From the sequence record PV577657: DNA of 64,000 nt. One strand, written 5' to 3'. Positions within the stretch are counted from its first letter, which is position 1. Every line of letters starts with the position of its first letter. The stretch is from Escherichia phage vB_EcoS_MM-1. The notes under the pieces are model-generated. The model was not told the origin of the DNA, made no database searches, and saw only the letters and a list, made by a program, of their open reading frames with translations. A program made the translations under genes and the position numbers. Shown here one piece after another: positions 7,981 to 61,296 of the stretch.

Positions 7981-8130
7981 ATGGTTATTTTTCGATCTAT
8001 TTTAGCGGGTATCTTGGGCGCTATTTTATCGTTATTTGCGATAGCTTTCGGCGTTCACGCTGTTATTATTGGCGCTGGCATTGCTGCGTTTTCTTATCTG
8101 CTGGGCTGCATGACTAGTAAAGGAGAATAA
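7981..8130 (+). CDS. small hydrophobic membrane protein
   Basis: 49 aa, below ORF-track cutoff; AGGAGG RBS; Gly/Ala-rich TM segment. Confidence 0.4.
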   Translation: MVIFRSILAGILGAILSLFAIAFGVHAVIIGAGIAAFSYLLGCMTSKGE

Positions 8131-8132
8131 AA

Positions 8133-8345
8133 ATGATCCGCAACGTTTCCCTTGCACGTTCGAAAGGCTTTAAGCTGGTGGATGTTAACACGTTCGAGTG
8201 GGAAGATTGTAAAATCGAATATGTAGCACGTAACAAAAATGCCTTTCGTGTTACCGAGAAAAAATTTGATAAGCGCGGCAACGTGATAGCTGAAACAGTT
8301 AAACATTTTGCCACCTTTTACGCTGCTTTCCGTGGGGTATTATGA
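8133..8345 (+). CDS. hypothetical protein
   Basis: 70 aa; AAGGAGAA RBS. Confidence 0.5.
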   Translation: MIRNVSLARSKGFKLVDVNTFEWEDCKIEYVARNKNAFRVTEKKFDKRGNVIAETVKHFATFYAAFRGVL

Positions 8346-20694: not shown

Positions 20695-21108
20695 TTAAAC
20701 TAGTTCTACATGACCGCCATCATAGGTACCACGTTTTATTTCATCGTGATAGTCTCCCGAAGCATTCCAATCAGCACCAAAACGAAGTTTAATGCCTAGT
20801 TCTTTACCAGCTTGTTCAAAAGCCTTTTTAACTGCCCAAAATGCTTCTAAGTCATTCCAATCAATTTTGCCATTAATATATGGAGCAAAATCAATAGCAT
20901 CCCCAGTAATATGTTTGCTTTTACTAGGATCTTTTAGAAATGAAGTACCATTAGCAATGTTCTGGGCACTTTGTGCTACTGTACGAATACCTTGCACGAT
21001 TGTGAAATCATACGGAGATAATTCTAAAGCCCTACGAGCTACTTTTTGTAGTTCGGGCTTAACGGTTGCTAATTGTTTTTCGCTATTTTTACCAAATTTA
21101 AAACTCAT
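20695..21108 (-). CDS. lys: endolysin, L-alanyl-D-glutamate peptidase (M15 family)
   Basis: 137 aa; zinc-ligand pattern H...D...H ('DGGHVEL'); same length as T5 endolysin. Confidence 0.7.
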   Translation of the reverse strand: MSFKFGKNSEKQLATVKPELQKVARRALELSPYDFTIVQGIRTVAQSAQNIANGTSFLKDPSKSKHITGDAIDFAPYINGKIDWNDLEAFWAVKKAFEQAGKELGIKLRFGADWNASGDYHDEIKRGTYDGGHVELV

Positions 21109-21815
21109 ATTGACCTACCTAAAGATCTCTGTTGTGGAGAACAGAGCTTTGCTAAATATTCCTTGAACTGTTCAGAATCAGCTGTATCTACCGGATTATC
21201 TTTCCAAGCAATACCAATGTACCCAGCATAGATATTTTTTAGATTGAAGTATGGACAAGTGTATATGTAATTAAAAGTAACGTTTTTAAACGCAGGTATA
21301 TTTAACCCCATATATTTATTTACTTTTACACTTAAATCCGATGCGTAGTTAAAGCCCTCTAAATGACGTCTGTATAATTCAGACGTTTTATTTACCGCTT
21401 TATCGGCCAAGTCAGCCCTATCTAATTGCGCATTACTTTCCCATGCAATAATATTGGAATAATCATTGATAGCATCTGGTTTATACTTGACTACAAAAAC
21501 AGCATCTGCACCCGTCTGAGAGAAGAGAACCATGCTCTTTTCCCTCGCCACATTAGGGAAGTTATCTATCCTCTGGGTTTGTAAATCCTGTAAAACTGCA
21601 GACGTGGAAAAAGTCTTTAAGAATGACATCACTTCACTAGTATTACTAACAAATAAGAAAATAATGACAGCAACTAAGATAGTTAGCAGACGTTTAAGAA
21701 GCGATGCTGGGTCTTTCGCTTCTTGGAGCAGTACTGTTAATAATTGTAAGAACTTTTCCAATTTGTAACCTCCTCTAACCAGTACCATTATACTAATTTT
21801 GGAGGAAAATTTCAA
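21105..21815 (-). CDS. membrane protein, putative holin
   Basis: TM segment; sits immediately upstream of endolysin; start uncertain. Confidence 0.4.
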   Translation of the reverse strand: MKFSSKISIMVLVRGGYKLEKFLQLLTVLLQEAKDPASLLKRLLTILVAVIIFLFVSNTSEVMSFLKTFSTSAVLQDLQTQRIDNFPNVAREKSMVLFSQTGADAVFVVKYKPDAINDYSNIIAWESNAQLDRADLADKAVNKTSELYRRHLEGFNYASDLSVKVNKYMGLNIPAFKNVTFNYIYTCPYFNLKNIYAGYIGIAWKDNPVDTADSEQFKEYLAKLCSPQQRSLGRSI

Positions 21816-22529: not shown

Positions 22530-23282
22530 TTATCCAACTAGTGGTTCTAGCTCTAAGTCACAGAAGTTATACACTTCTAGTTTAAGGTTATTGATACCCT
22601 CGAATTTATTAACTAATTCGTGAGTGATATATTTTGCAGGAATACCACTTTCAGATGGATGATCTGATTTAATAGTGAACTTCTGCTCAGCGGGTACTAC
22701 ATTTACTATCAAAGAATCCATATCTAAATGATTTGTTTCTCTGAGTAACTCTCCTTCATTGGGGAATCTAACATCTGTTATTACGGCGACATCTGGGTCG
22801 TCTTTAGCGATGGATTGCTCCAGAATTATGAGCCAAATGCGTTCATGCACCAGCTGCCTTCCTAGCTCTGTCCCTACGAGCTGTAACATTTTTCTCGGAG
22901 AAATAAATAAACTATAAAGTCCGTCTTCTTTATTCTCTGAGATAAGTTGTTGAGGATTAAGATATTTTTCCTCAAAAATAGGCCAAACGTACGAGAAGTC
23001 TTCAAACTTATCGATACCATACTTAAACCACACATCTCTGGCTCGCTCCAATTGAGATTGTGTGACCGTAAACCATTGGTCAACCTCTTTTCCCTTGCGC
23101 TCTCCTAGAAACTCTGGAGTTACACCGAGGATTACGGATGCAAGTTCATAAACGGGCTTAGCAAAACTGTAACGACGGGGTAAACACGTTGGATACGTGT
23201 CATTACACCAATCGATAATTAGTTTTGCAACAGTGTCTTTTCCAGAACCAGCCTCACCATGCAGACCTACTAATACTGACAT
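22530..23282 (-). CDS. dnk: deoxynucleoside monophosphate kinase
   Basis: 250 aa; P-loop GEAGSGKDT at N-terminus. Confidence 0.65.
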   Translation of the reverse strand: MSVLVGLHGEAGSGKDTVAKLIIDWCNDTYPTCLPRRYSFAKPVYELASVILGVTPEFLGERKGKEVDQWFTVTQSQLERARDVWFKYGIDKFEDFSYVWPIFEEKYLNPQQLISENKEDGLYSLFISPRKMLQLVGTELGRQLVHERIWLIILEQSIAKDDPDVAVITDVRFPNEGELLRETNHLDMDSLIVNVVPAEQKFTIKSDHPSESGIPAKYITHELVNKFEGINNLKLEVYNFCDLELEPLVG

Positions 23283-23635
23283 TAATCTTTCCTATTGTTA
23301 ATGGGTGGATAGTAAACTAAGCAACGTTTTTCTTGTAAATCTTGGCGATAGAAGCAAACCATACTAGTCAATCGTGAGATATATGAATATTCTGCCTCCC
23401 GGCATTTTGCCAACATATTCCAATCTTTATATGGTACAACAACTACTACGCCATCTTCGCCATTTGTAGCTAATTTCTTTTCGAATTTGAAATCAAAGCT
23501 ACAAGGCTGAAGTCCTTTAGGCCAATCCACATGGGCTGTTGGTAGCTCATGTGTAGGTTCTGGCTTTATTTCTTGTGCACAGCCTGTGATTGTGATTGTG
23601 GCTGCGAGCAGTATTCCAAGTTTCCAGTTAAACAT
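23282..23635 (-). CDS. lipoprotein, possible o-spanin
   Basis: signal peptide with lipobox ITGC; 5' end overlaps the upstream TM/coiled-coil ORF by 70 nt. Confidence 0.45.
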   Translation of the reverse strand: MFNWKLGILLAATITITGCAQEIKPEPTHELPTAHVDWPKGLQPCSFDFKFEKKLATNGEDGVVVVVPYKDWNMLAKCREAEYSYISRLTSMVCFYRQDLQEKRCLVYYPPINNRKD

Positions 23636-24009
23636 GCTAATCTTTCCTCGAACTCCTTACTCTGCTTTTTAGCAATTAATGTAACCAATCCAGGCTTTGC
23701 AGCTATAATATCTTGACGACTAAGTGCTTTATCAAGCTGGGAGATCTTCTTATCAAGATCTTGTTGAGAAATATTATTCATTGTGAAATACTGATTCATT
23801 CTAGTCTCACGAAGTTCACTTTCAGCTTTCACCTTATTAAGGGAAGTCTCTAGAGAAGAAATCTTTTTAGTAGCTACCGCAAGATCTCCCGCTAAAGTCT
23901 CCACTTTATCTACTAAGTGATAAGCACCGAATCCGATGCCTATCGCTAGACCTGCTCCCAGGATATACATCTTGTTATTCCAAACAAAGTCTACAAACCA
24001 TTTTCGCAT
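23566..24009 (-). CDS. TM plus coiled-coil protein, possible i-spanin
   Basis: N-terminal TM then long coiled coil; overlapped-pair architecture with the lipoprotein. Confidence 0.45.
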   Translation of the reverse strand: MRKWFVDFVWNNKMYILGAGLAIGIGFGAYHLVDKVETLAGDLAVATKKISSLETSLNKVKAESELRETRMNQYFTMNNISQQDLDKKISQLDKALSRQDIIAAKPGLVTLIAKKQSKEFEERLACLTGNLEYCSQPQSQSQAVHKK

Positions 24010-24506
24010 TAGCCTGTACTCGCAAACTCACCGTGGAGTTCTTTGAGTTTGGTATCCCGCCATTTTATAGCCTCTTCCAAACTCTTAAGTGTTTTCGAAA
24101 CTTGCTTACCATGTTTGGTAATTCTTACTTGGTAAGTCCCATTTGTTTTTCTATGGATATTTTTAACGCCTAAATGGTTATCACTTCTTACTTTTTGGTT
24201 ACAAGCATTATCAGATCTTGTAGCAGGCCTTAGATTCTCAAATCTATCATTAGTTGAGTCTTTGTCCTTGTGATCAACTATTTCAGGCCATTCTCCAGTA
24301 TGCCATGCATAGATTAATCTATGTGCCCCTATAGCTATGGAACCATTATATAGTTCAACTACTCTATGCCCTGTACTTTGTCTAGATCCTGCTACTGTTC
24401 CGGCGAATATCTTATTAAAATGTTCGTCCCCTTCCCTGGGTTTCCAGATAAGATTACCATCTTCTTGGTAATCGAACATTCTTCTTAGCTCTTCCTTACT
24501 GATCAT
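24009..24506 (-). CDS. HNH homing endonuclease
   Basis: 'HKDKDSTNDRFENL' His-Asn-His motif. Confidence 0.6.
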   Translation of the reverse strand: MISKEELRRMFDYQEDGNLIWKPREGDEHFNKIFAGTVAGSRQSTGHRVVELYNGSIAIGAHRLIYAWHTGEWPEIVDHKDKDSTNDRFENLRPATRSDNACNQKVRSDNHLGVKNIHRKTNGTYQVRITKHGKQVSKTLKSLEEAIKWRDTKLKELHGEFASTG

Positions 24507-28209: not shown

Positions 28210-28285
28210 TGGAGCGGCTAGAGGGAATCGAACCCTACTCAGCGAGGCTTGGAAGGCCTGCGGCACAACCCGTGTGCTTAACCGC
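28210..28285 (-). tRNA. tRNA-Gly (UCC)
   Basis: acceptor GCGGTTA/TAGCCGC, anticodon loop CUUCCAA, T-loop TTCGATT, discriminator U, CCA encoded. Confidence 0.65.
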
Positions 28286-28293
28286 TTATTGTT

Positions 28294-29126: not shown

Positions 29127-29221
29127 TGGAGGTAGGTAAGGGGATCGAACCCTTACACCGTATCACTACGATCAACCGATTTCAAGTCGGAGTCCAGCGC
29201 CAGCCATTGGATTGACCTACC
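29127..29221 (-). tRNA. tRNA-Ser (UGA)
   Basis: 95 nt, long variable arm with 6-bp stem, anticodon loop CUUGAAA. Confidence 0.55.
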
Positions 29222-29233
29222 ATATAAATTGTT

Positions 29234-29324
29234 TGGCGGAAGAGGAGAGATTTGAACTCTCAAGCCGTTTTACCAGTCAGCCACTTTCCAAGCGGTTTTC
29301 GTCACCAATTCGATTTGCTCTTCC
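29234..29324 (-). tRNA. tRNA-Ser (GGA)
   Basis: 91 nt type II, anticodon loop UUGGAAA, discriminator G. Confidence 0.6.
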
Positions 29325-30150: not shown

Positions 30151-30228
30151 TGGAAGCGGGTGCAGGAATCGAACCTACCTCTTTCTAGCTTATGAGACTA
30201 GCGATCTCTACCAGAGATCTAACCCGCA
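30151..30228 (-). tRNA. tRNA-Met/Ile2-type (CAU)
   Basis: anticodon loop CUCAUAA; position 1-72 reads as U-U mismatch. Confidence 0.5.
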
Positions 30229-30234
30229 ATTGTT

Positions 30235-30310
30235 TGGTCAGTGCGGCAGGACTCGAACCTGCGACCCGAAGCATCCAAGGCTCCCACGCTACCAACTGCG
30301 CTACGCACTG
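30235..30310 (-). tRNA. tRNA-Pro (UGG)
   Basis: C1-G72, anticodon loop CUUGGAU, discriminator A. Confidence 0.65.
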
Positions 30311-30319
30311 TTAATTCTT

Positions 30320-30517
30320 TTATTGTGGAGGAATATTAATAATTCGTCCGTCTACACAATAAACGGTACTAGGAATTGTACTATATATGTAGAAATTCTT
30401 TATATTACTCTCTCCGCCACAGAAATTTTTAGCAAATTCATACTCTTTATTAATGGTTGAGTCAAGTTTAAAACAACCAGTAAGTAGGAATACAGACAGC
30501 AGTAAAACTTTTTTCAT
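30320..30517 (-). CDS. small lipoprotein
   Basis: 65 aa; signal peptide with lipobox LLTGC. Confidence 0.45.
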   Translation of the reverse strand: MKKVLLLSVFLLTGCFKLDSTINKEYEFAKNFCGGESNIKNFYIYSTIPSTVYCVDGRIINIPPQ

Positions 30518-30727
30518 TTTGCTTTCCTTCTCAACACTTTATAAGGTATATTATACAGAGAATTAAGCATAATAGCAAATGAATTTTTAATAAATTTACT
30601 TATTGTGTAGGCCACCTGGAGGCTACCAACCCCACGGCTGACAAAGAAGTTTGCGAGACCTCTCTTAAGTGCCAGAATAGACCCGCCGATCTATCGGAAC
30701 CTACATAATAAGTAAACTTTATAGTGT

Positions 30728-30848
30728 CATTCTAGACAGGACTCGAACCTGTTATCACTTGTGCGGACTTACGAGAACCATTCTTTCACTCGAATCGAAC
30801 GAGCTTCTGCCCTCGCCAAGCTGGTTTCCCCATCAACCACGCTAGAAT
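30728..30848 (-). ncRNA. 121-nt tRNA-like element
   Basis: perfect 7-bp terminal helix (attctag / ctagaat), canonical T-arm and a D-arm-like stem, about 45 nt of extra internal sequence. Confidence 0.3.
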
Positions 30849-30970
30849 GTTTGATTGTTTTCAGTGCAAGAGTCCGAGTCTTGGACACGACCGCTTCGCA
30901 AGTACATAGGCAGCTTATCATGAGTCAGCACTTCCGAATTGCTAGCTCCGTGTTCTGCACTGAAATTTTA

Positions 30971-31430: not shown

Positions 31431-31616
31431 TTACTCAGCTTTGAGTTTTTCAATAGCTGCATTAAGTTCTTTAAGAAACTTTTTTCGTACATTAAGACGG
31501 TTGAGACTTACTAGTATATCATGTTTAAGTTCTTCGATGTATTTCTTCTCAACTTCAATATTGTTGATAGTGCTATCACGATGAACTTCTAGCTGTGCAA
31601 TTACATTCTTGGACAT
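31431..31616 (-). CDS. small coiled-coil protein
   Basis: 61 aa. Confidence 0.35.
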   Translation of the reverse strand: MSKNVIAQLEVHRDSTINNIEVEKKYIEELKHDILVSLNRLNVRKKFLKELNAAIEKLKAE

Positions 31617-31718
31617 GCTTGTTTCCTCAGTTATTAATGAAAATGGTATCTGTGACTGAATTCGATGTCAGCAATGATAGCTGGTTGGCTACCGGTTTAC
31701 TTAACTCTACACAGAATT

Positions 31719-34186: not shown

Positions 34187-34264
34187 TGGTGGCTCCCCGA
34201 GGATTCGAACCTACGTACCTTCCGGTTATGAGCCGGGTGCTCATACCATATGAGCTTGAGAACC
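34187..34264 (-). tRNA. tRNA-Met (CAU)
   Basis: anticodon loop CUCAUAA with G-C-rich anticodon stem, D-stem GCTC/GAGC, discriminator A. Confidence 0.55.
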
Positions 34265-36912: not shown

Positions 36913-37860
36913 TTACTTGTTACGCATATCCATGATCATTTGACCATCGTAGCCAGTACCTACCACAGTCTGAGGTACACCACCTTGATACTTCTGAGCA
37001 CGGATCATTTCAACTTCCAGTTGTTTCCAACGAATCATTTCAGGAGTAATGGTACGTTGCAATGCGGCGTTAGCTTCAGCTTCTTTCTTAGCTGCGTACA
37101 GTTTAGCATCTGCGTCACGTTCATTAGCAATAGCTTGGTTGTTACGAGCTTCACGATCTGCTTCTGCTTGTTTAACTTTTTGCTGTGCTTCCTGTTCAAC
37201 GCGAGCAAGTTCAGCTTTCGCAGCATTAACTTGCTCTTCACGAACTTTGGTATTCTGTACCTGTTCCATGATTACTGGCGGCAAGGTAATATCCTGAAGG
37301 AATACCTGCTTAACTGTGTAACCATATGGGCGCGCATACTCTTCAACTTCCTGTTGAATTGCAGTTTGCAATTGAGCCTGAATTTTAGCATCAAATAAAT
37401 CTTGTGCTTTAGGTACAGACTTACCAAACTCACGAATAGTAGACAGTAATTTTTCAGTTACATACTTGTCTAGTGCCTGATCCTGAGTACCTGCGTTAAT
37501 ACGGTTAATCGGTGCTTTAGAACCATCAAACTGCAACATAACAGTCAGGTCAACAGTGGATTTAAACTTATCCTGGCTAGGAACCTGAAGTTTATCTAAT
37601 TTTACAGCAATATCTTTTGTACTAAAAGTATCGAAAGATGCAAACGGGTTTACAAGATGGAAGCCCGGCAATACTGGATTAGGGTCTACTTTACCCAGGA
37701 ATGTTTGGGTTTTAACCGTACCATCAGAAACAATAGTATATGAATTAAAAGCTAGGATTAAACCTGCTAAACCAACTACAGCACCAATACCCCAACGTTT
37801 AATAGTACGAATTACTTTCTGCTCAGAAGTCAGTTCTTTCATATTTTTAGTAGCAAACAT
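36913..37860 (-). CDS. SPFH/Band-7 (stomatin/prohibitin-like) membrane protein
   Basis: N-terminal TM, SPFH-like core, C-terminal Ala/Glu/Gln-rich coiled coil. Confidence 0.6.
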   Translation of the reverse strand: MFATKNMKELTSEQKVIRTIKRWGIGAVVGLAGLILAFNSYTIVSDGTVKTQTFLGKVDPNPVLPGFHLVNPFASFDTFSTKDIAVKLDKLQVPSQDKFKSTVDLTVMLQFDGSKAPINRINAGTQDQALDKYVTEKLLSTIREFGKSVPKAQDLFDAKIQAQLQTAIQQEVEEYARPYGYTVKQVFLQDITLPPVIMEQVQNTKVREEQVNAAKAELARVEQEAQQKVKQAEADREARNNQAIANERDADAKLYAAKKEAEANAALQRTITPEMIRWKQLEVEMIRAQKYQGGVPQTVVGTGYDGQMIMDMRNK

Positions 37861-37969: not shown

Positions 37970-38803
37970 TTTAAGTATTTTTAAGAACTCTCGTAAAAAC
38001 TCTTAAAAATACAGACGATACCGGGAGAGTCATAAGTCTCACTCATTAAGTATTTCAAGACAAAATACAGTAACGTCTATTATTTTCCAGTTTAAGTCAG
38101 GGTGACTTAGTGGTTATGTCCTGCGGTATATTGAGGACTCGGTTAGGCTTGGGGTCATGACTTCCCACCTTTTGCTGCTACTCAACAGGAGTTATCGCGA
38201 ATTACCTGTGCTATTGTGCACCATTAGTGACATCTCTCATGTCAGCATTTCCCACTTTGTGGATAGCTTGAAAAACTACTCCGATATGGAGAAAGAACTT
38301 CACTATCCTAGAATACCTTCTAAAGTTCTTCTTTAGCCTGGACATAGTTAAATCGTAATAAAACTATTCAGCAGACTGGTTGGTTAGTCTGGAACCAACT
38401 ACCGCGTGGTTTAGGCAGTGCGCAACTAACCTCGGAAGCTTTTATGTTAAAAGCATCAGTTATCCAGTTCTTACCGACCGTAGGATTCGAACCTACATCT
38501 TCCACCAGTTACGGCTTGATAATACCAATTATACTAGGACGGCAGTGTTACTACATAAGTGATTTCCACACCCCACTATTTATAAATCAGAGAAGAGTTT
38601 AGGGGAGAGGTTTCAGACGCCTCATTTTACACGTTCTAGCCACTAACCGGGATTGCCGCCCCCTGTGTACTAGTTTTACAACTAACCCACCGACTCTATT
38701 CAATGCGCTCCGGTTGGGATTCTGCACTCAGCGTAATCGGCTCGCTGTTCCCTAATTTATGAATATATTATACAGAATTTATAAGCATTTAGCAAATGAA
38801 TTT

Positions 38804-58004: not shown

Positions 58005-60791
58005 GTGTTCTCAATCCTACAAGGTCATGCAGGATTTCATCGCGATTTAGCCACAGGCATTTGGCGAGAAGTTAAAGCAGAAGACTATCTTTTTGCTAAA
58101 AGATTTTCCTCAAAGCATCCTGAAGGTAAACCAGCTTCAATGCCCTTCAAGTTTGATGTAATTGATGAAGTTGATCCTCAAACCCTAGTAGAAATGCTCC
58201 CTCTTATGAGACGTTTAACGTCTGACCCTCATATCGTTGCGGTACGAGGTCGATGTCTTGCACCCAAAAATAATGTGCGGCGTAAGAAGGGCAACTTTAA
58301 TGTATCTAACCCAAGTCATATAATTGCAATGGACGTGGATGGTATTGTAGATACAGGTGGTTGTAACAAGTTTGATCTTGTTGGCATGGCTCGACATATT
58401 ATTAGAATGTTAAATAGTATTAGTGAGGATATGTTTCCTCTTGATGCAGGGTTTATTGCTCATGCATCGTCTTCGGCTGGGCTAAAACCAGGTATCCGAA
58501 TGCACTTAATACTAGAATCTAATGTTAAAGTAACTCAGGGTCAAATCAAATTCTTATTTACATCTATCAATGAAAGTAGTAGACAAAAGTATGGCTTTGA
58601 TATTGCCGACTTAGCTTATTACTCTTCCGTACAGCTCCATTATTTTGCAGATCCGTTATTTACCGATGGTATAGTAGATCCGTTTAAGGCGGAGGGTGCT
58701 TCACGTCTGGTATTTGTTAAGGGTTCTAAAGTAAACTTACCTAATAATCTGGTTGACTATGAAACAACTAGAGGTGAGTTTAAGGAGGAGTTTTACTCTT
58801 TACTCGATCAAATTAAAGGTAAAAAAGCTGCCTCCGATAAAGTAGAGGAAACTATCAGCGAACTAGAAGAAGCTGAGGATGGAGTGTATCTACGTATCAT
58901 ACCTAAACTCTATCACAGAGCTTTAGAGGATGGTGTTGATTTTGCATGGCTAGAAAAAGAAATCCGTCCAGCCTTATCAGAATATATTGCAACCAAAGAT
59001 AATAGTCGTAATATTCAAGATTACTTTAATAACGGTCGTAAACAGGCTCTGAAAGCATTTGTTAATAATTCTAAACGCGATATACCTGATGTTTTAAAAG
59101 GTATTCCACTTAAAAAGCTAGAAACTAACTCTCTAGAAACTGATAACTTCTTGAAATTAAATACTGTACCACCAGAAGGTTATATGACTTTTGTAAAAGC
59201 AAGTCTAGGTACAGGTAAAACTACGGCGGTTGTGCGTTGGTTAGATTCAGGAGTTATTAAAGGTAATTTCTTAGCAATTACCAATACTCGAGCACTGGTA
59301 TCTTCAAATGCTAAGAAATTTAGTGCAGGACAATATGATAAGTCTGTAGATATGCTTAATTTTAAGCGTGGTGCTATTGACCGTATGTCCACAACTATTC
59401 ACTCTTTGCATAAGTTCAAGAGTTTTATTGGTCAAATCGATGCAATCTTTATAGATGAATGTGATGCTGTAATGAATGACCTATTATTCGCCCCGGTTGT
59501 TAAACAACGTCGTGAATGTATTCAGGTTCTTCGGGATATTCTTGCAACTGCAAAAATCATTATATTATCTGATGGGGATATTAGTGCAGAAACAATTGAA
59601 GCATATGGTTCTTTAATTGAGTTTGATAAACCGGTTGCATTTTATAATCATCACCGAAAAATGCTATCAAAAGCTCATGCCTACGAGTTCCCTGATGAAT
59701 CCAGTATTTGGGTTGCACTTCAGACTTCTCTAGAGATGGGTGAGAAATCTATCCTAGTATCTGACTGTGGGCCGGATGAACTGAATGAGAAGGGCATGGC
59801 GTTGCGTCGTAATACGGGTGCGTTAGTTAAGGAAATCCACTCAAACTCTACGTCTGATGTAGATATTCGACGTATTCTGGATTACACAACTAATGAGTTA
59901 ATTGACCAACAAATTGATTGCTTATTATGTAGTCCATCCGTAACGAGTGGTGTTGACTTCAACTATTTTGATAACGTATTCGTTATTACTAGAACCAGTA
60001 ACCAAGCGCCAAACATGCGTTTTCAAGCAATCAGGCGCGACCGTGGTGCTCAGAACATTTATTATTTTATTGATAAATCTACGAGTGGATTCTCCGCAGG
60101 CTCTGAACAATATAATATTGATGAAGGTTGGCTGGAGTTAGCACAGCAATTATACGCACGTCGTAGGGAGCTGGAGTCTAGGAACTATACTAGTACTTTA
60201 CGTTATTACTTGCTTGATCAGGGTGCAACTATTGATATTTTCAGTGAAAGCTGGGGAACTATCGAAGGTGCAGGTAAAGAGTATACAGAAGAGCGAATCA
60301 AAGCCATTTTGTATTCAACTCCTGATTATTGTGCTCCACGCCATGCAGATGCATATGAAGCTAAACTACTTCTTGTTCGCTATTATCATCTTGAGTCTAT
60401 TAAAGATGTAACAGTTGAGCATGTTGAGCAATACATTAAGGATAAACCGAATGATCGAGCGGCATTCTTCCATAAAATGCACGAGATGTTCTGGGAAGAT
60501 ATTAAGAAGTGTTCAAATGTCACTATCAAACCATTCATAGAAGCTCTGAAAGGCAAGAAGAAAGATTTCTTCCTTAAAACAGGTCAGAGTGCTAACCCAA
60601 AATATGCCAGAATGTATCTTGGTATGATGGGTATTGGCAAGGATATGAACACGGAGAATATTGTAGACTGGTACAGAACTTATTGTAAAATCGAGTGTAT
60701 GCCAATTCCTTTCAAATTCATGACAGAGGAAGAGAAGGCTATGGCAGAAGAAGTACTGTCCGAACTTGGAGCAACTAATGAAGACGCATAA
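58005..60791 (+). CDS. P-loop NTPase, helicase-like replication protein
   Basis: Walker A 'GTGKTT' (59208-59225), Walker B 'IDECD' (59454-59465); GTG start after AGGAG RBS preferred over track start 57927. Confidence 0.55.
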   Translation: MFSILQGHAGFHRDLATGIWREVKAEDYLFAKRFSSKHPEGKPASMPFKFDVIDEVDPQTLVEMLPLMRRLTSDPHIVAVRGRCLAPKNNVRRKKGNFNVSNPSHIIAMDVDGIVDTGGCNKFDLVGMARHIIRMLNSISEDMFPLDAGFIAHASSSAGLKPGIRMHLILESNVKVTQGQIKFLFTSINESSRQKYGFDIADLAYYSSVQLHYFADPLFTDGIVDPFKAEGASRLVFVKGSKVNLPNNLVDYETTRGEFKEEFYSLLDQIKGKKAASDKVEETISELEEAEDGVYLRIIPKLYHRALEDGVDFAWLEKEIRPALSEYIATKDNSRNIQDYFNNGRKQALKAFVNNSKRDIPDVLKGIPLKKLETNSLETDNFLKLNTVPPEGYMTFVKASLGTGKTTAVVRWLDSGVIKGNFLAITNTRALVSSNAKKFSAGQYDKSVDMLNFKRGAIDRMSTTIHSLHKFKSFIGQIDAIFIDECDAVMNDLLFAPVVKQRRECIQVLRDILATAKIIILSDGDISAETIEAYGSLIEFDKPVAFYNHHRKMLSKAHAYEFPDESSIWVALQTSLEMGEKSILVSDCGPDELNEKGMALRRNTGALVKEIHSNSTSDVDIRRILDYTTNELIDQQIDCLLCSPSVTSGVDFNYFDNVFVITRTSNQAPNMRFQAIRRDRGAQNIYYFIDKSTSGFSAGSEQYNIDEGWLELAQQLYARRRELESRNYTSTLRYYLLDQGATIDIFSESWGTIEGAGKEYTEERIKAILYSTPDYCAPRHADAYEAKLLLVRYYHLESIKDVTVEHVEQYIKDKPNDRAAFFHKMHEMFWEDIKKCSNVTIKPFIEALKGKKKDFFLKTGQSANPKYARMYLGMMGIGKDMNTENIVDWYRTYCKIECMPIPFKFMTEEEKAMAEEVLSELGATNEDA

Positions 60792-61296
60792 ACCAATGCC
60801 TCCTATGGCATTTATCCTAGAAAAGCTTAGGTATGACGAAAGTACTGGGGACTTAATTTGGTTATCTGGCCCAAGGAAGGGAAAGGTAGCGGGCTCCAAA
60901 ATGAAAACTGGGAGACAGCTAGAGTTTATGATAAATGGGGGGCGGACAGCTTACTTAGCCCATAGAATAATCTGGTTTATAAAGACAGGTGAAGATCCTG
61001 GAGATAAAACTATTGACCATAAAGACGGTGATAGTTTAAACAACTTGTGGGATAATTTACGTAAGGCTACCTATTCCGAAAATGGAAAGAATAAGAAGTG
61101 TTCTACTAATTCTACCGGATTCACTGGAGTTGTAAAACGAGGTAATAGGTATATGGCCTACGCTTACTGCGATGGAAAGCAACATATTTTTGGTAGACGA
61201 GATACCCCGGAAGAAGCCCATCAGCTATACCTTAGGGGAGTTAAAGAGCTGTTTGGTGAATTTAATCCCTCGGAGAGATATGACAGTGAAGAATAA
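60778..61296 (+). CDS. HNH homing endonuclease
   Basis: 'IDHKDGDSLNNLWDNL'; ATG after GGAG RBS. Confidence 0.55.
   Translation: MKTHKPMPPMAFILEKLRYDESTGDLIWLSGPRKGKVAGSKMKTGRQLEFMINGGRTAYLAHRIIWFIKTGEDPGDKTIDHKDGDSLNNLWDNLRKATYSENGKNKKCSTNSTGFTGVVKRGNRYMAYAYCDGKQHIFGRRDTPEEAHQLYLRGVKELFGEFNPSERYDSEE

What the first reader, a model, noticed from the sequence alone, without database searches (positions are those of the whole stretch)
30320..30517. Small lipoprotein gene between tRNA genes
The 65-aa ORF has a classical lipobox (LLTGC) and its own promoter/leader. Small phage lipoproteins often block receptors or mediate exclusion.
Basis: inference. Interest (0 to 1): 0.35.

Follow-up and report, generated by a model that had tools for sequence, protein, structure and literature searches.

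The report
Small early phage lipoprotein, not spanin
A T5-like phage carries an optional, strongly conserved 65-residue lipoprotein gene behind an early promoter and just ahead of tRNA genes; databases call it a lysis "spanin", which the evidence contradicts, and its real job, probably changing the cell envelope to shut out other phages, is still untested.

Summary
A 65-codon ORF lies on the minus strand at 30320-30517, with a canonical lipobox (LTG|C15), a good ribosome-binding site and a near-consensus sigma-70 promoter. That promoter is the homologue of phage T5's annotated early promoter P13a.

The gene is under strong purifying selection (dN/dS about 0.06-0.10). It belongs to a rare family of 38 clusters (phrog_6073). 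Members share a short membrane tether and a confidently predicted helix-plus-three-strand mini-domain with two invariant cysteines. I found no Pfam domain, solved homologue or fold match.

The database label "Rz-like spanin" is wrong. The phage has its own holin, endolysin and overlapped spanin pair at 20.7-24.0 kb. Curated spanin lists for SPC35 and PVP-SE1 name other genes. No partner gene is conserved. A third of the lipoprotein members carry Asp+2, and four members lack a lipobox.

It is also not the Llp/Cor-type blocker of the phage's own receptor. That gene sits beside the receptor-binding protein gene, and carriage of this gene is uncoupled from receptor-binding protein type. It is optional cargo in a three-state slot: lipoprotein, T5.066 or empty.

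Most likely it is an early, membrane-tethered periplasmic binder used for heterologous exclusion or envelope modification. That function is inferred, not shown. Interest is modest.

The parts
30320..30517 (-). Coding sequence of the 65-aa prolipoprotein (ATG at 30517-30515, TAA at 30322-30320)
   Evidence: ORF list and sequence. phrog_6073 match at E 1.2e-28. dN/dS 0.06-0.10 among T5-like copies.
30476..30517 (-). Signal peptide, residues 1-14 (MKKVLLLSVFLLTG). Predicted signal peptidase II cleavage lies between G14 and C15.
   Evidence: Read directly from the sequence. A lipobox is present in 34 of 38 family representatives. Processing itself is inferred.
30473..30484 (-). Lipobox L12-T13-G14-C15. 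Cys15 is the predicted lipid-modified first residue of the mature protein, followed by Phe+2 and Lys+3.
   Evidence: Fits [LVI][ASTVI][GAS]C. The consensus is quoted in PMC6139136.
30323..30475 (-). Mature 51-residue protein: a tether of about 8 residues, then a compact domain with a helix to residue 33 and three short strands
   Evidence: AlphaFold2 models: residues 21-60 have block-mean pLDDT of 87-98 with the 14-sequence alignment and 93-98 with the 38-sequence alignment. Conserved motif [FY]xWAxxFCGG...VxCxDGRxxDIP.
30419..30421 (-). Codon for Cys33, one of the only two invariant columns in the family
   Evidence: Alignment A3 of 38 cluster representatives. The spacing to the second cysteine is 19-23 residues throughout. 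A disulfide with Cys54 is inferred.
30356..30358 (-). Codon for Cys54, the second invariant column
30525..30529 (-). Shine-Dalgarno sequence AAGGA, ending 7 nt before the ATG
   Evidence: Sequence. Identical in T5 upstream of T5.066.
30523..30597 (-). Homologue of T5 early promoter P13a, with -35 TTGCTA at 30578-30573, a 17-nt spacer, -10 TATAAT at 30555-30550, and an A/T-rich stretch upstream
   Evidence: Promoter scan, 10 of 12 consensus positions. Constant-offset mapping onto the 'promoter P13a' feature of NC_005859. Activity and timing in this phage are inferred.
30235..30310 (-). tRNA-Pro (UGG), starting 9 nt after the stop codon and probably on the same transcript
   Evidence: ARAGORN and Rfam. 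No terminator-like site was found downstream of the ORF stop. The gene lies directly 5' of tRNA-Pro in all 8 Markadamsvirinae examined.
30151..30228 (-). tRNA-Met (CAU; annotated as initiator tRNA-fMet in T5), next gene in the same probable transcription unit

Best explanation
This is a real but optional early gene of a T5-like phage. It encodes a small membrane-tethered periplasmic protein and represents the uncharacterised family phrog_6073.

Expression (inferred from sequence). Host sigma-70 RNA polymerase starts at the P13a-type promoter soon after the DNA enters. The transcript carries the ORF and continues into tRNA-Pro and tRNA-Met. RNase P cleavage at tRNA-Pro would then set the mRNA 3' end.

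Maturation (inferred from the lipobox). The 65-aa precursor is exported. Cys15 is lipid-modified, and signal peptidase II removes residues 1-14. The mature 51-residue protein hangs on a tether of about 8 residues. [quoted passage not shown] Function (hypothesis). The tethered domain binds a conserved, periplasm-exposed component of the enterobacterial envelope. This changes the infected cell so that other phages can no longer adsorb productively or deliver DNA. That would be heterologous superinfection exclusion, complementing the Llp/Cor-type lipoprotein that masks the phage's own receptor.

It is not a spanin.
For: - Real gene: dN/dS 0.06-0.10. Only 38 clusters match among 1.84 billion representatives, and they share one motif and two invariant cysteines.
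- Secreted and tethered: 34 of 38 members have a lipobox, and the other four have an N-terminal hydrophobic anchor. Tethers are short throughout.
- Folded domain: block-mean pLDDT of 87-98 over residues 21-60 in two independent models.
- Early expression: the promoter scores 10 of 12. The 378 nt upstream of it are 99% identical to T5, and the promoter stretch itself is about 95% identical and maps onto the annotated P13a feature.
- Accessory cargo: similarity to T5 stops at the start codon, where T5 has T5.066 instead. Of 369 phage records carrying the RNAIV+P13a module, about 69 have the lipoprotein, 113 have T5.066-like genes and others have an empty slot.
- Always in an early or accessory context, with no conserved neighbour: T5-like tRNA region, PVP-SE1, the stretch between primase-helicase and PolA, and the nin region of lambdoid prophages.
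- Not the blocker of the phage's own receptor: a phrog_1119 lipoprotein sits beside the receptor-binding protein gene of the identical phage MM-2.
- Uncoupled from receptor type: lipoprotein-positive phages carry at least three receptor-binding protein types, and the same type occurs without the gene.
- Precedent: T5 Llp is a small, early-expressed, disulfide-containing lipoprotein that inactivates FhuA from the periplasmic side (PMC9586334).
Against: - No experiment or homology links the family to exclusion. The functional step is analogy plus context.
- The anchor is not conserved: Asp+2 in 11 of 34 lipoproteins, and no lipobox in 4 of 38 members. Action from the outer membrane is therefore not a family property, and the target may lie at the inner membrane or be soluble.
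- In lambdoid prophages the gene overlaps the upstream nin-region ORF by 4 bp, so it looks like a lytic-cycle gene rather than a lysogen-expressed exclusion gene.
- Many T5-like phages do without it, and one copy is frameshifted. Any benefit is therefore conditional.
- From memory only, not checked here: Seydel et al. 1999 reported that aromatic residues at +2 can retain a reporter lipoprotein in the inner membrane. If so, even this protein's predicted outer-membrane location is uncertain.
Confidence: 0.4

Rival explanations
1. Outer-membrane spanin subunit (the 'Rz-like spanin' label of PHROGs, Pharokka and RefSeq). On this reading the lipoprotein pairs with an inner-membrane i-spanin and fuses the membranes at lysis.
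For: phrog_6073 is labelled 'Rz-like spanin' and matches at E 1.2e-28. Several GenBank and RefSeq records carry the label. It is a small lipoprotein with periplasmic cysteines, as o-spanins are.
Against: - The window already holds a complete lysis set: endolysin 20695-21108, holin 21105-21815, i-spanin 23566-24009 (147 aa) and o-spanin 23282-23635 (117 aa), overlapped by 70 nt.
- The curated spanin census lists exactly that 147/117-aa pair for T5 and SPC35. It lists 60881-61283 and 60594-60885 for PVP-SE1. It does not list the small lipoprotein at SPC35 31494-31688 or at PVP-SE1 130942-131154.
- No member examined has an adjacent type-II membrane protein partner: PVP-SE1 gp212 has no transmembrane segment, and the lambdoid neighbours are unrelated to each other.
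- The lambdoid prophages that carry it have their own holin, endolysin, Rz and Rz1/LysC cassette about 5 kb away.
- 11 of 34 lipoprotein members have Asp+2 and 4 of 38 members lack a lipobox, which is incompatible with an obligate outer-membrane subunit.
- It is driven by an early promoter rather than sitting in the lysis cluster.
- It shows no similarity to the phage's own o-spanin beyond the signal peptide.
Confidence: 0.04
2. Llp-type cognate receptor blocker. On this reading it masks the phage's own terminal receptor (FhuA, BtuB or FepA) from the periplasmic face of the outer membrane, preventing self-superinfection and loss of progeny on debris.
For: Similar size, lipobox, two cysteines and an early promoter, in a phage group where this strategy is documented (PMC9586334; PMC8594841).
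Against: - That role is already filled by a phrog_1119 (Cor/Llp-family) lipoprotein divergently adjacent to the receptor-binding protein gene in the identical phage MM-2.
- Similarity to it is confined to the signal peptide.
- Lipoprotein-positive phages carry the MM-2 type, the SPC35 type (72% identical) and the T5/FFH_1 type (30% identical) of receptor-binding protein.
- mar004NP2 and poul124 have the MM-2-type receptor-binding protein without the gene.
- Homologues occur in myophages and lambdoid prophages that have other receptors.
Confidence: 0.08
3. A periplasmic effector with a role other than exclusion during lytic growth. Examples would be a tethered inhibitor of a host envelope enzyme or an envelope-linked defence or stress pathway, or a modulator of lysis timing.
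For: - Expression appears tied to the lytic cycle in every context, including the nin region of prophages.
- The anchor type varies (outer-membrane lipoprotein, Asp+2 lipoprotein, transmembrane segment), which suits a target reachable from either membrane or one that is soluble.
- The fold has no known relative, so no function is excluded.
Against: No positive evidence for any particular target. There is no conserved partner gene, no PADLOC hit below E 0.037, and no link to lysis genes.
Confidence: 0.3
4. Spurious or decaying ORF with no function.
For: It is short and AT-rich, absent from most T5-like genomes, unannotated in some records, and frameshifted in KKP_3831.
Against: dN/dS is 0.06-0.10 with synonymous sites near saturation in the more distant pairs. 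Invariant cysteines and a shared motif persist down to about 30% identity in unrelated phage types. The fold is predicted with high confidence. The ribosome-binding site and promoter are intact.
Confidence: 0.02

Closest known systems
T5 Llp / Cor family of superinfection-exclusion lipoproteins (phrog_1119)
   Same: A small phage lipoprotein of about 50-60 mature residues, with a short tether and a pair of cysteines that plausibly form an intramolecular disulfide. It is driven by an early promoter in a T5-like phage and faces the periplasm.
   Different: - No sequence similarity beyond the signal peptide, and no fold match to any solved structure.
- It is not next to the receptor-binding protein gene; it lies in the tRNA region behind P13a.
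- Carriage is independent of receptor-binding protein type.
- The phage has a genuine Cor/Llp-family gene as well.
- The family also includes Asp+2 and transmembrane-anchored members.
Two-component spanin outer-membrane subunits (lambda Rz1; the T5 117-aa o-spanin, phrog_812)
   Same: An N-terminal lipobox, small size and periplasmic cysteines. Public annotation gives it this name.
   Different: It has no partner i-spanin, lies outside the lysis cluster and has an early promoter. It has a compact predicted fold and only 3 prolines in 51 residues, unlike Rz1 with its proline-rich region. The family is not uniformly sorted to the outer membrane. The phage's curated spanin pair lies elsewhere.
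T4 Imm and Sp (spackle), P22 SieA, HK97 gp15: membrane-associated blockers of phage DNA entry (named from general knowledge, not tested here)
   Same: Small envelope-located phage proteins that are thought to act after adsorption. An anchor-independent periplasmic site of action would fit the mixed anchors seen in this family.
   Different: No homology was detected by any search here. Those proteins are integral inner-membrane or soluble periplasmic proteins rather than lipoproteins. The resemblance is purely conceptual.
T5.066 (phrog_18174), the alternative occupant of the same slot in T5
   Same: Same position, same promoter and same ribosome-binding site, and also directly 5' of tRNA-Pro. 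It too is a very small membrane-targeted protein (52 aa; the T5 record notes two transmembrane domains) of unknown function.
   Different: The sequences are unrelated. T5.066 is an integral membrane protein rather than a lipoprotein.

Membership tests
phrog_6073 (uncharacterised small-lipoprotein family, labelled 'Rz-like spanin') | Significant full-length match to the family HMM | tested here: met
   E 1.2e-28 over residues 1-63. 36 of the 38 cluster representatives match the same PHROG.
phrog_6073 (as redefined here) | N-terminal membrane anchor, short tether, and the [FY]xWAxxFCGG ... VxCxDGRxxDIP core with two cysteines 19-23 residues apart | tested here: met
   Alignment A3: C33 and C54 are the only invariant columns. 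Tabulated.
Two-component o-spanin (Rz1-like) | Lipoprotein signal with a lipobox | tested here: met
   LTG|C15.
Two-component o-spanin (Rz1-like) | Gene embedded in, overlapping or adjacent to an i-spanin gene (type II inner-membrane protein with a coiled-coil periplasmic domain) | tested here: not met
   The upstream sequence is a promoter plus stable-RNA genes, and the downstream gene is tRNA-Pro. PVP-SE1 gp212 and the lambdoid upstream ORFs have no transmembrane segment and are unrelated to one another.
Two-component o-spanin (Rz1-like) | Provides the phage's outer-membrane disruption function, meaning no other spanin is present | tested here: not met
   The window encodes an overlapped i-/o-spanin pair (phrog_739 and phrog_812) near the holin and endolysin. 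The curated lists name those genes for T5 and SPC35, and other genes for PVP-SE1.
Two-component o-spanin (Rz1-like) | Obligate outer-membrane sorting across the family | tested here: not met
   Asp+2 in 11 of 34 lipoprotein members, and no lipobox in 4 of 38 members.
Two-component o-spanin (Rz1-like) | Complements an Rz1 or o-spanin lysis defect | not testable with these tools
   Needs a lambda Rz/Rz1-defect complementation assay.
Unimolecular spanin (T1 gp11 type) | N-terminal lipobox plus a C-terminal transmembrane domain | tested here: not met
   The C-terminus ...STVYCVDGRIINIPPQ has no hydrophobic segment.
Llp/Cor superinfection-exclusion lipoproteins | Sequence or structural homology to Llp/Cor | tested here: not met
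   phrog_1119 matches only residues 1-20, at E 0.087. hhalign against the phage's own Cor-family protein aligns the signal peptide only. Foldseek against the PDB library gave no hit at E <= 0.001.
Llp/Cor superinfection-exclusion lipoproteins | Gene adjacent to the cognate receptor-binding protein gene and co-varying with it | tested here: not met
   It lies in the tRNA region, about 76 kb from the receptor-binding protein gene in MM-2 record coordinates. The adjacent position is occupied by another lipoprotein. Carriage is uncoupled from receptor-binding protein type.
Llp/Cor superinfection-exclusion lipoproteins | Small lipoprotein with an intramolecular disulfide | tested here: inconclusive
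   A lipobox and two invariant cysteines are present. The disulfide is inferred and was not measured.
Llp/Cor superinfection-exclusion lipoproteins | Expression inactivates a phage receptor | not testable with these tools
   Needs expression followed by adsorption and plating assays.

The most novel reading that the evidence does not exclude
phrog_6073 is a previously unrecognised class of phage exclusion or envelope effector. On this reading it is a disulfide-locked domain of about 40 residues that works whether it is tethered to the outer membrane, tethered to the inner membrane or held by a transmembrane helix. That would be possible because it captures a conserved periplasm-spanning or soluble host component, such as an energy-transducing or DNA-entry factor, rather than a specific receptor. 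It would give T5-like, rV5-like and lambdoid phages broad heterotypic exclusion during the lytic cycle.
Probability: 0.2. Interest if true: 0.55.

Novelty: new variant of a known kind. Interest (0 to 1): 0.3.

Why it matters
Three points, all modest.

1. It corrects an annotation error that is spreading. 'Rz-like spanin' is attached to this family by PHROG-based pipelines and now appears in RefSeq records. That gives T5-like and Seunavirus genomes a spurious third spanin.

2. It defines a compact, easily testable protein family. The mature protein is about 50 residues, with two invariant cysteines, a confident fold prediction and no known relative. The family is confined, as far as the named records show, to phages of Enterobacterales. 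It always lies in early or accessory regions. This makes it a good candidate in screens for new exclusion or host-takeover functions.

3. It shows that the T5 early promoter P13a drives an exchangeable cargo slot whose mRNA is probably fused to tRNA precursors. That is a neat case for studying how phages express accessory genes from tRNA operons.

If the protein blocks heterologous phages, this would matter when designing phage cocktails that contain T5-like phages.

Tried and rejected
- Pfam, NCBIfam and PADLOC scans of the protein and of a distant homologue gave nothing beyond lipoprotein signal-peptide matches.
- hmmsearch of the family profile against PDB sequences found no meaningful hit.
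- Foldseek with two AlphaFold2 models against the PDB library found no hit at E <= 0.001. Against BFVD it found only family members.
Contexts were obtained through the look-up of encoding contigs instead.
- An exact-match scan of IMG/VR for the promoter returned only T5 itself. The slot survey therefore used BLAST against the phage collection.
- I looked for a conserved partner gene, either a possible i-spanin or an operon mate. The upstream ORFs differ in every lineage.
- I tested linkage to a particular tRNA-Pro allele. The alleles assort independently of the ORF.
- I tested linkage to receptor-binding protein type. There is none.
- Literature searches for any study of this gene or of a T5 tRNA-region lipoprotein found nothing specific.
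- I could not verify from the paper library my recollection that aromatic +2 residues can cause inner-membrane retention (Seydel et al. 1999). It is flagged as unverified.

Full report
**What is there**

The window is a T5-like phage (Tequintavirus). It is 100% identical to Escherichia phage vB_EcoS_MM-2 (PV577658) over the 1.6 kb around the finding and over a further 25 kb.

The flagged ORF lies on the minus strand at 30320-30517. It encodes MKKVLLLSVFLLTGCFKLDSTINKEYEFAKNFCGGESNIKNFYIYSTIPSTVYCVDGRIINIPPQ. The N-terminus is a canonical lipoprotein signal: MKK, a nine-residue hydrophobic core and the lipobox L-T-G-C15.

An AAGGA Shine-Dalgarno sequence ends 7 nt before the ATG. A TTGCTA-17-TATAAT promoter lies at 30578-30550.

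The stop codon is 9 nt from tRNA-Pro (30235-30310), which is followed by tRNA-Met. No terminator-like site was found downstream of the ORF stop. The ORF is therefore probably the first cistron of a transcript that continues into tRNAs.

**Is it a real gene?**

Yes. Among six T5-like copies the pairwise dN/dS is 0.06-0.10, with synonymous sites near saturation in the more distant pairs.

I built a profile from 14 homologues and searched it against 1.84 billion representative proteins. It recovered only 38 clusters at E <= 0.001. In the 38-sequence alignment the only invariant columns are Cys33 and Cys54. The core motif [FY]xWAxxFCGG...VxCxDGRxxDIP is recognisable down to about 30% identity.

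AlphaFold2 gives a confident compact domain, a helix ending at residue 33 followed by three short strands. Block-mean pLDDT over residues 21-60 is 87-98 with the 14-sequence alignment and 93-98 with the 38-sequence alignment.

Nothing similar is known:
- No Pfam, NCBIfam or PADLOC family matches.
- No PDB sequence matches.
- Foldseek finds nothing in the PDB library, and in BFVD it finds only family members.
- The one library match is phrog_6073 (E 1.2e-28), which also captures 36 of the 38 representatives.

**The genomic slot**

The T5 RefSeq record annotates, in this order, RNA2, RNAIV, promoter P13a, T5.066 and tRNA-Pro.

The 378 nt upstream of the window's promoter are 99% identical to T5 without gaps. 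This places RNAIV at 30604-30706, RNA2 at 30725-30849 and P13a at 30523-30597. The promoter, spacer and ribosome-binding site are conserved right up to the start codon.

From the start codon onward there is no similarity. T5 encodes T5.066 there, a 52-aa protein that the record notes as having two transmembrane domains. This phage encodes the lipoprotein instead.

Across the phage collection, 369 records carry the RNAIV+P13a module. The lipoprotein is found in 83 phage records, about 69 of them T5-like. T5.066-like genes occur in 113. In others, such as S116 and L6jm, the promoter runs straight into tRNA-Pro.

The gene lies directly 5' of tRNA-Pro in all eight Markadamsvirinae I examined. It is not linked to a particular tRNA-Pro allele. 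It is therefore freely assorting optional cargo. One copy, in KKP_3831, is frameshifted.

**Why it is not a spanin**

Public records and PHROGs call the family 'Rz-like spanin'. Five lines of evidence contradict this.

1. The window contains a full lysis set:
   - endolysin at 20695-21108
   - holin at 21105-21815
   - a 147-aa i-spanin at 23566-24009, with an N-terminal transmembrane segment
   - a 117-aa o-spanin at 23282-23635, with lipobox ITGC, overlapping the i-spanin by 70 nt

   Each matches its own lysis PHROG.

2. The curated spanin census of Kongari et al. 2018 lists that same 147/117-aa pair for T5 and for SPC35, a phage that carries an identical copy of the small lipoprotein. For PVP-SE1 it lists a separate pair at 60.6-61.3 kb. 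It does not list the small lipoprotein at SPC35 31494-31688 or at PVP-SE1 gp211.

3. No member has an i-spanin-like neighbour. PVP-SE1 gp212 has no transmembrane segment. In lambdoid prophages the upstream ORFs are unrelated to one another.

4. Those prophages carry the gene in the nin region, between the replication genes and NinG. Their own holin, endolysin, Rz and Rz1/LysC cassette lies about 5 kb downstream.

5. Outer-membrane sorting is not a family property. Of the 34 lipoprotein members, 11 have Asp at +2, and 4 of the 38 members have an N-terminal hydrophobic anchor with no lipobox cysteine. According to Terada et al. 2001, as quoted in PMC5727369, the strength of Asp+2 retention depends on the +3 residue. 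Three of these members (DE, DE, DN) carry strong signals.

There is also no C-terminal transmembrane domain, which excludes a unimolecular spanin.

**Why it is not the Llp-type blocker of the phage's own receptor**

T5 Llp is a small, early lipoprotein encoded next to the receptor-binding protein gene. It binds the periplasmic face of FhuA and has an intramolecular disulfide (PMC9586334).

The source phage has such a gene in the canonical place. It is an 88-aa lipoprotein divergent from the 585-aa receptor-binding protein gene, and it matches the Cor family phrog_1119 at E 1.8e-26. The protein studied here aligns with it only over the signal peptide.

Carriage does not follow receptor-binding protein type:
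- Lipoprotein-positive phages include EC148 and Lindwurm (96-100% identical receptor-binding protein to MM-2), SPC35, phA11 and Th1 (72%), and FFH_1 (30%, close to T5 pb5).
- mar004NP2 and poul124 have the MM-2-type receptor-binding protein without the gene.
- The literature assigns different receptors across these phages: BtuB for most, FhuA or FepA for a few, and probably FepA for S124, which also carries the gene (PMC8594841).

**What it most likely does**

Every context found is an early or accessory region of a phage genome, or of a phage-like metagenomic contig, from Enterobacterales hosts where the host is named:
- the T5-like tRNA region, behind an early promoter
- a cluster of small genes in Seunavirus PVP-SE1
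- the stretch between primase-helicase and DNA polymerase A in a large contig
- clusters of small unknown genes in contigs of 88-154 kb
- the lambdoid nin region

This points to a protein made during lytic growth that acts in the periplasm close to a membrane surface. Tethers are only about 9-16 residues in all members.

By analogy with Llp/Cor, and given that T5-like phages invest in envelope conversion, my best-supported hypothesis is as follows. The protein is a tethered binder that inactivates a conserved periplasm-exposed envelope component. This would exclude other phages at the adsorption or DNA-entry stage, complementing the cognate Llp-type protein.

I put this at about 0.4. The main alternative, at about 0.3, is some other periplasmic task, such as inhibiting a host envelope enzyme or defence, or adjusting lysis timing.

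What is shown and what is inferred:
- Shown: the gene, its selection, the family, the predicted fold, the promoter homology and the genomic logic.
- Inferred: the processing steps and the membrane location.
- Hypothesis: the function.

The protein's own location is uncertain. The canonical rule sends Phe+2/Lys+3 to the outer membrane. From memory, and unverified here, aromatic +2 residues retained a reporter lipoprotein in the inner membrane in one study (searches did not provide the passage). Together with the Asp+2 and transmembrane-anchored relatives, this leaves open that the family acts at the inner membrane.

**Verdict**

The finding is a real, conserved, uncharacterised accessory lipoprotein. 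The main new points are:
- the current 'spanin' annotation is refuted
- the family is defined by its two-cysteine mini-domain
- P13a drives a three-state cargo slot

It is a new variant of a known kind, small phage envelope lipoproteins, and is of modest interest (0.3).

Noticed in passing
window 30604-30706 and 30725-30849 (minus strand): These are homologues (99% identical) of the T5 stable RNAs RNAIV and tRNA-like RNA2, which the T5 RefSeq record annotates as 'unknown function'. Neither ARAGORN nor Rfam reports them. The closest GenBank record (MM-2) instead annotates hypothetical CDSs over this stretch (window 30514-30615 and 30769-30921). These are probably spurious, and the first overlaps the promoter.
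   Followed up: partly
window 30860-30965 (minus strand): A further non-coding stretch is 100% identical to T5 and is bracketed by an inverted repeat (CAGTGCAG...CTTGCACTG). It is unannotated even in the detailed T5 record and may be another stable RNA.
   Followed up: no
window 30235-30310; loci L005, L015, L017, L021-L025: tRNA-Pro(UGG) exists as several very different alleles in T5-like phages. The window's allele and T5's are only 64% identical. The alleles assort independently of the upstream ORF, so recombination in the tRNA region operates at the scale of single genes.
   Followed up: partly
window 28213-28286, 29131-29221, 29238-29324, 34190-34264, 38472-38543 (minus strand): Rfam finds tRNA or tRNA-like matches here that ARAGORN missed. 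By position, the first and fourth correspond to the tRNA-Gly (flagged pseudo) and second tRNA-Met annotated in MM-2. The two tRNA-Sec-model hits appear to correspond to the T5 tRNA-Ser genes.
   Followed up: no
window 23282-24506 (minus strand): The genuine spanin pair is a 147-aa i-spanin and a 117-aa o-spanin overlapped by 70 nt. It is separated from the holin and endolysin (20695-21815) by two other ORFs. An HNH endonuclease gene (24009-24506) abuts the i-spanin start codon.
   Followed up: partly
L007-L010 (lambdoid prophages, e.g. Citrobacter freundii), gene at 8001-8210: A 69-aa family member sits in the nin region of lambdoid prophages. It overlaps the upstream ORF by 4 bp, yet that upstream ORF differs between prophages (134 aa versus 101 aa, unrelated sequences). 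The lipoprotein gene therefore moves as a single-gene cassette there too.
   Followed up: partly
L025 (Salmonella phage KKP_3831) 401-600; Klebsiella phage KPP2018 (H60): In KKP_3831 the gene is frameshifted after residue 31. In KPP2018 the tblastn match is split into two pieces. This could be occasional loss of the gene or sequencing error.
   Followed up: partly
window about 36913-37860 (minus strand): MM-2 annotates a 315-aa 'lipoprotein' here. It is a second, much larger predicted lipoprotein in the early region and was not examined.
   Followed up: no
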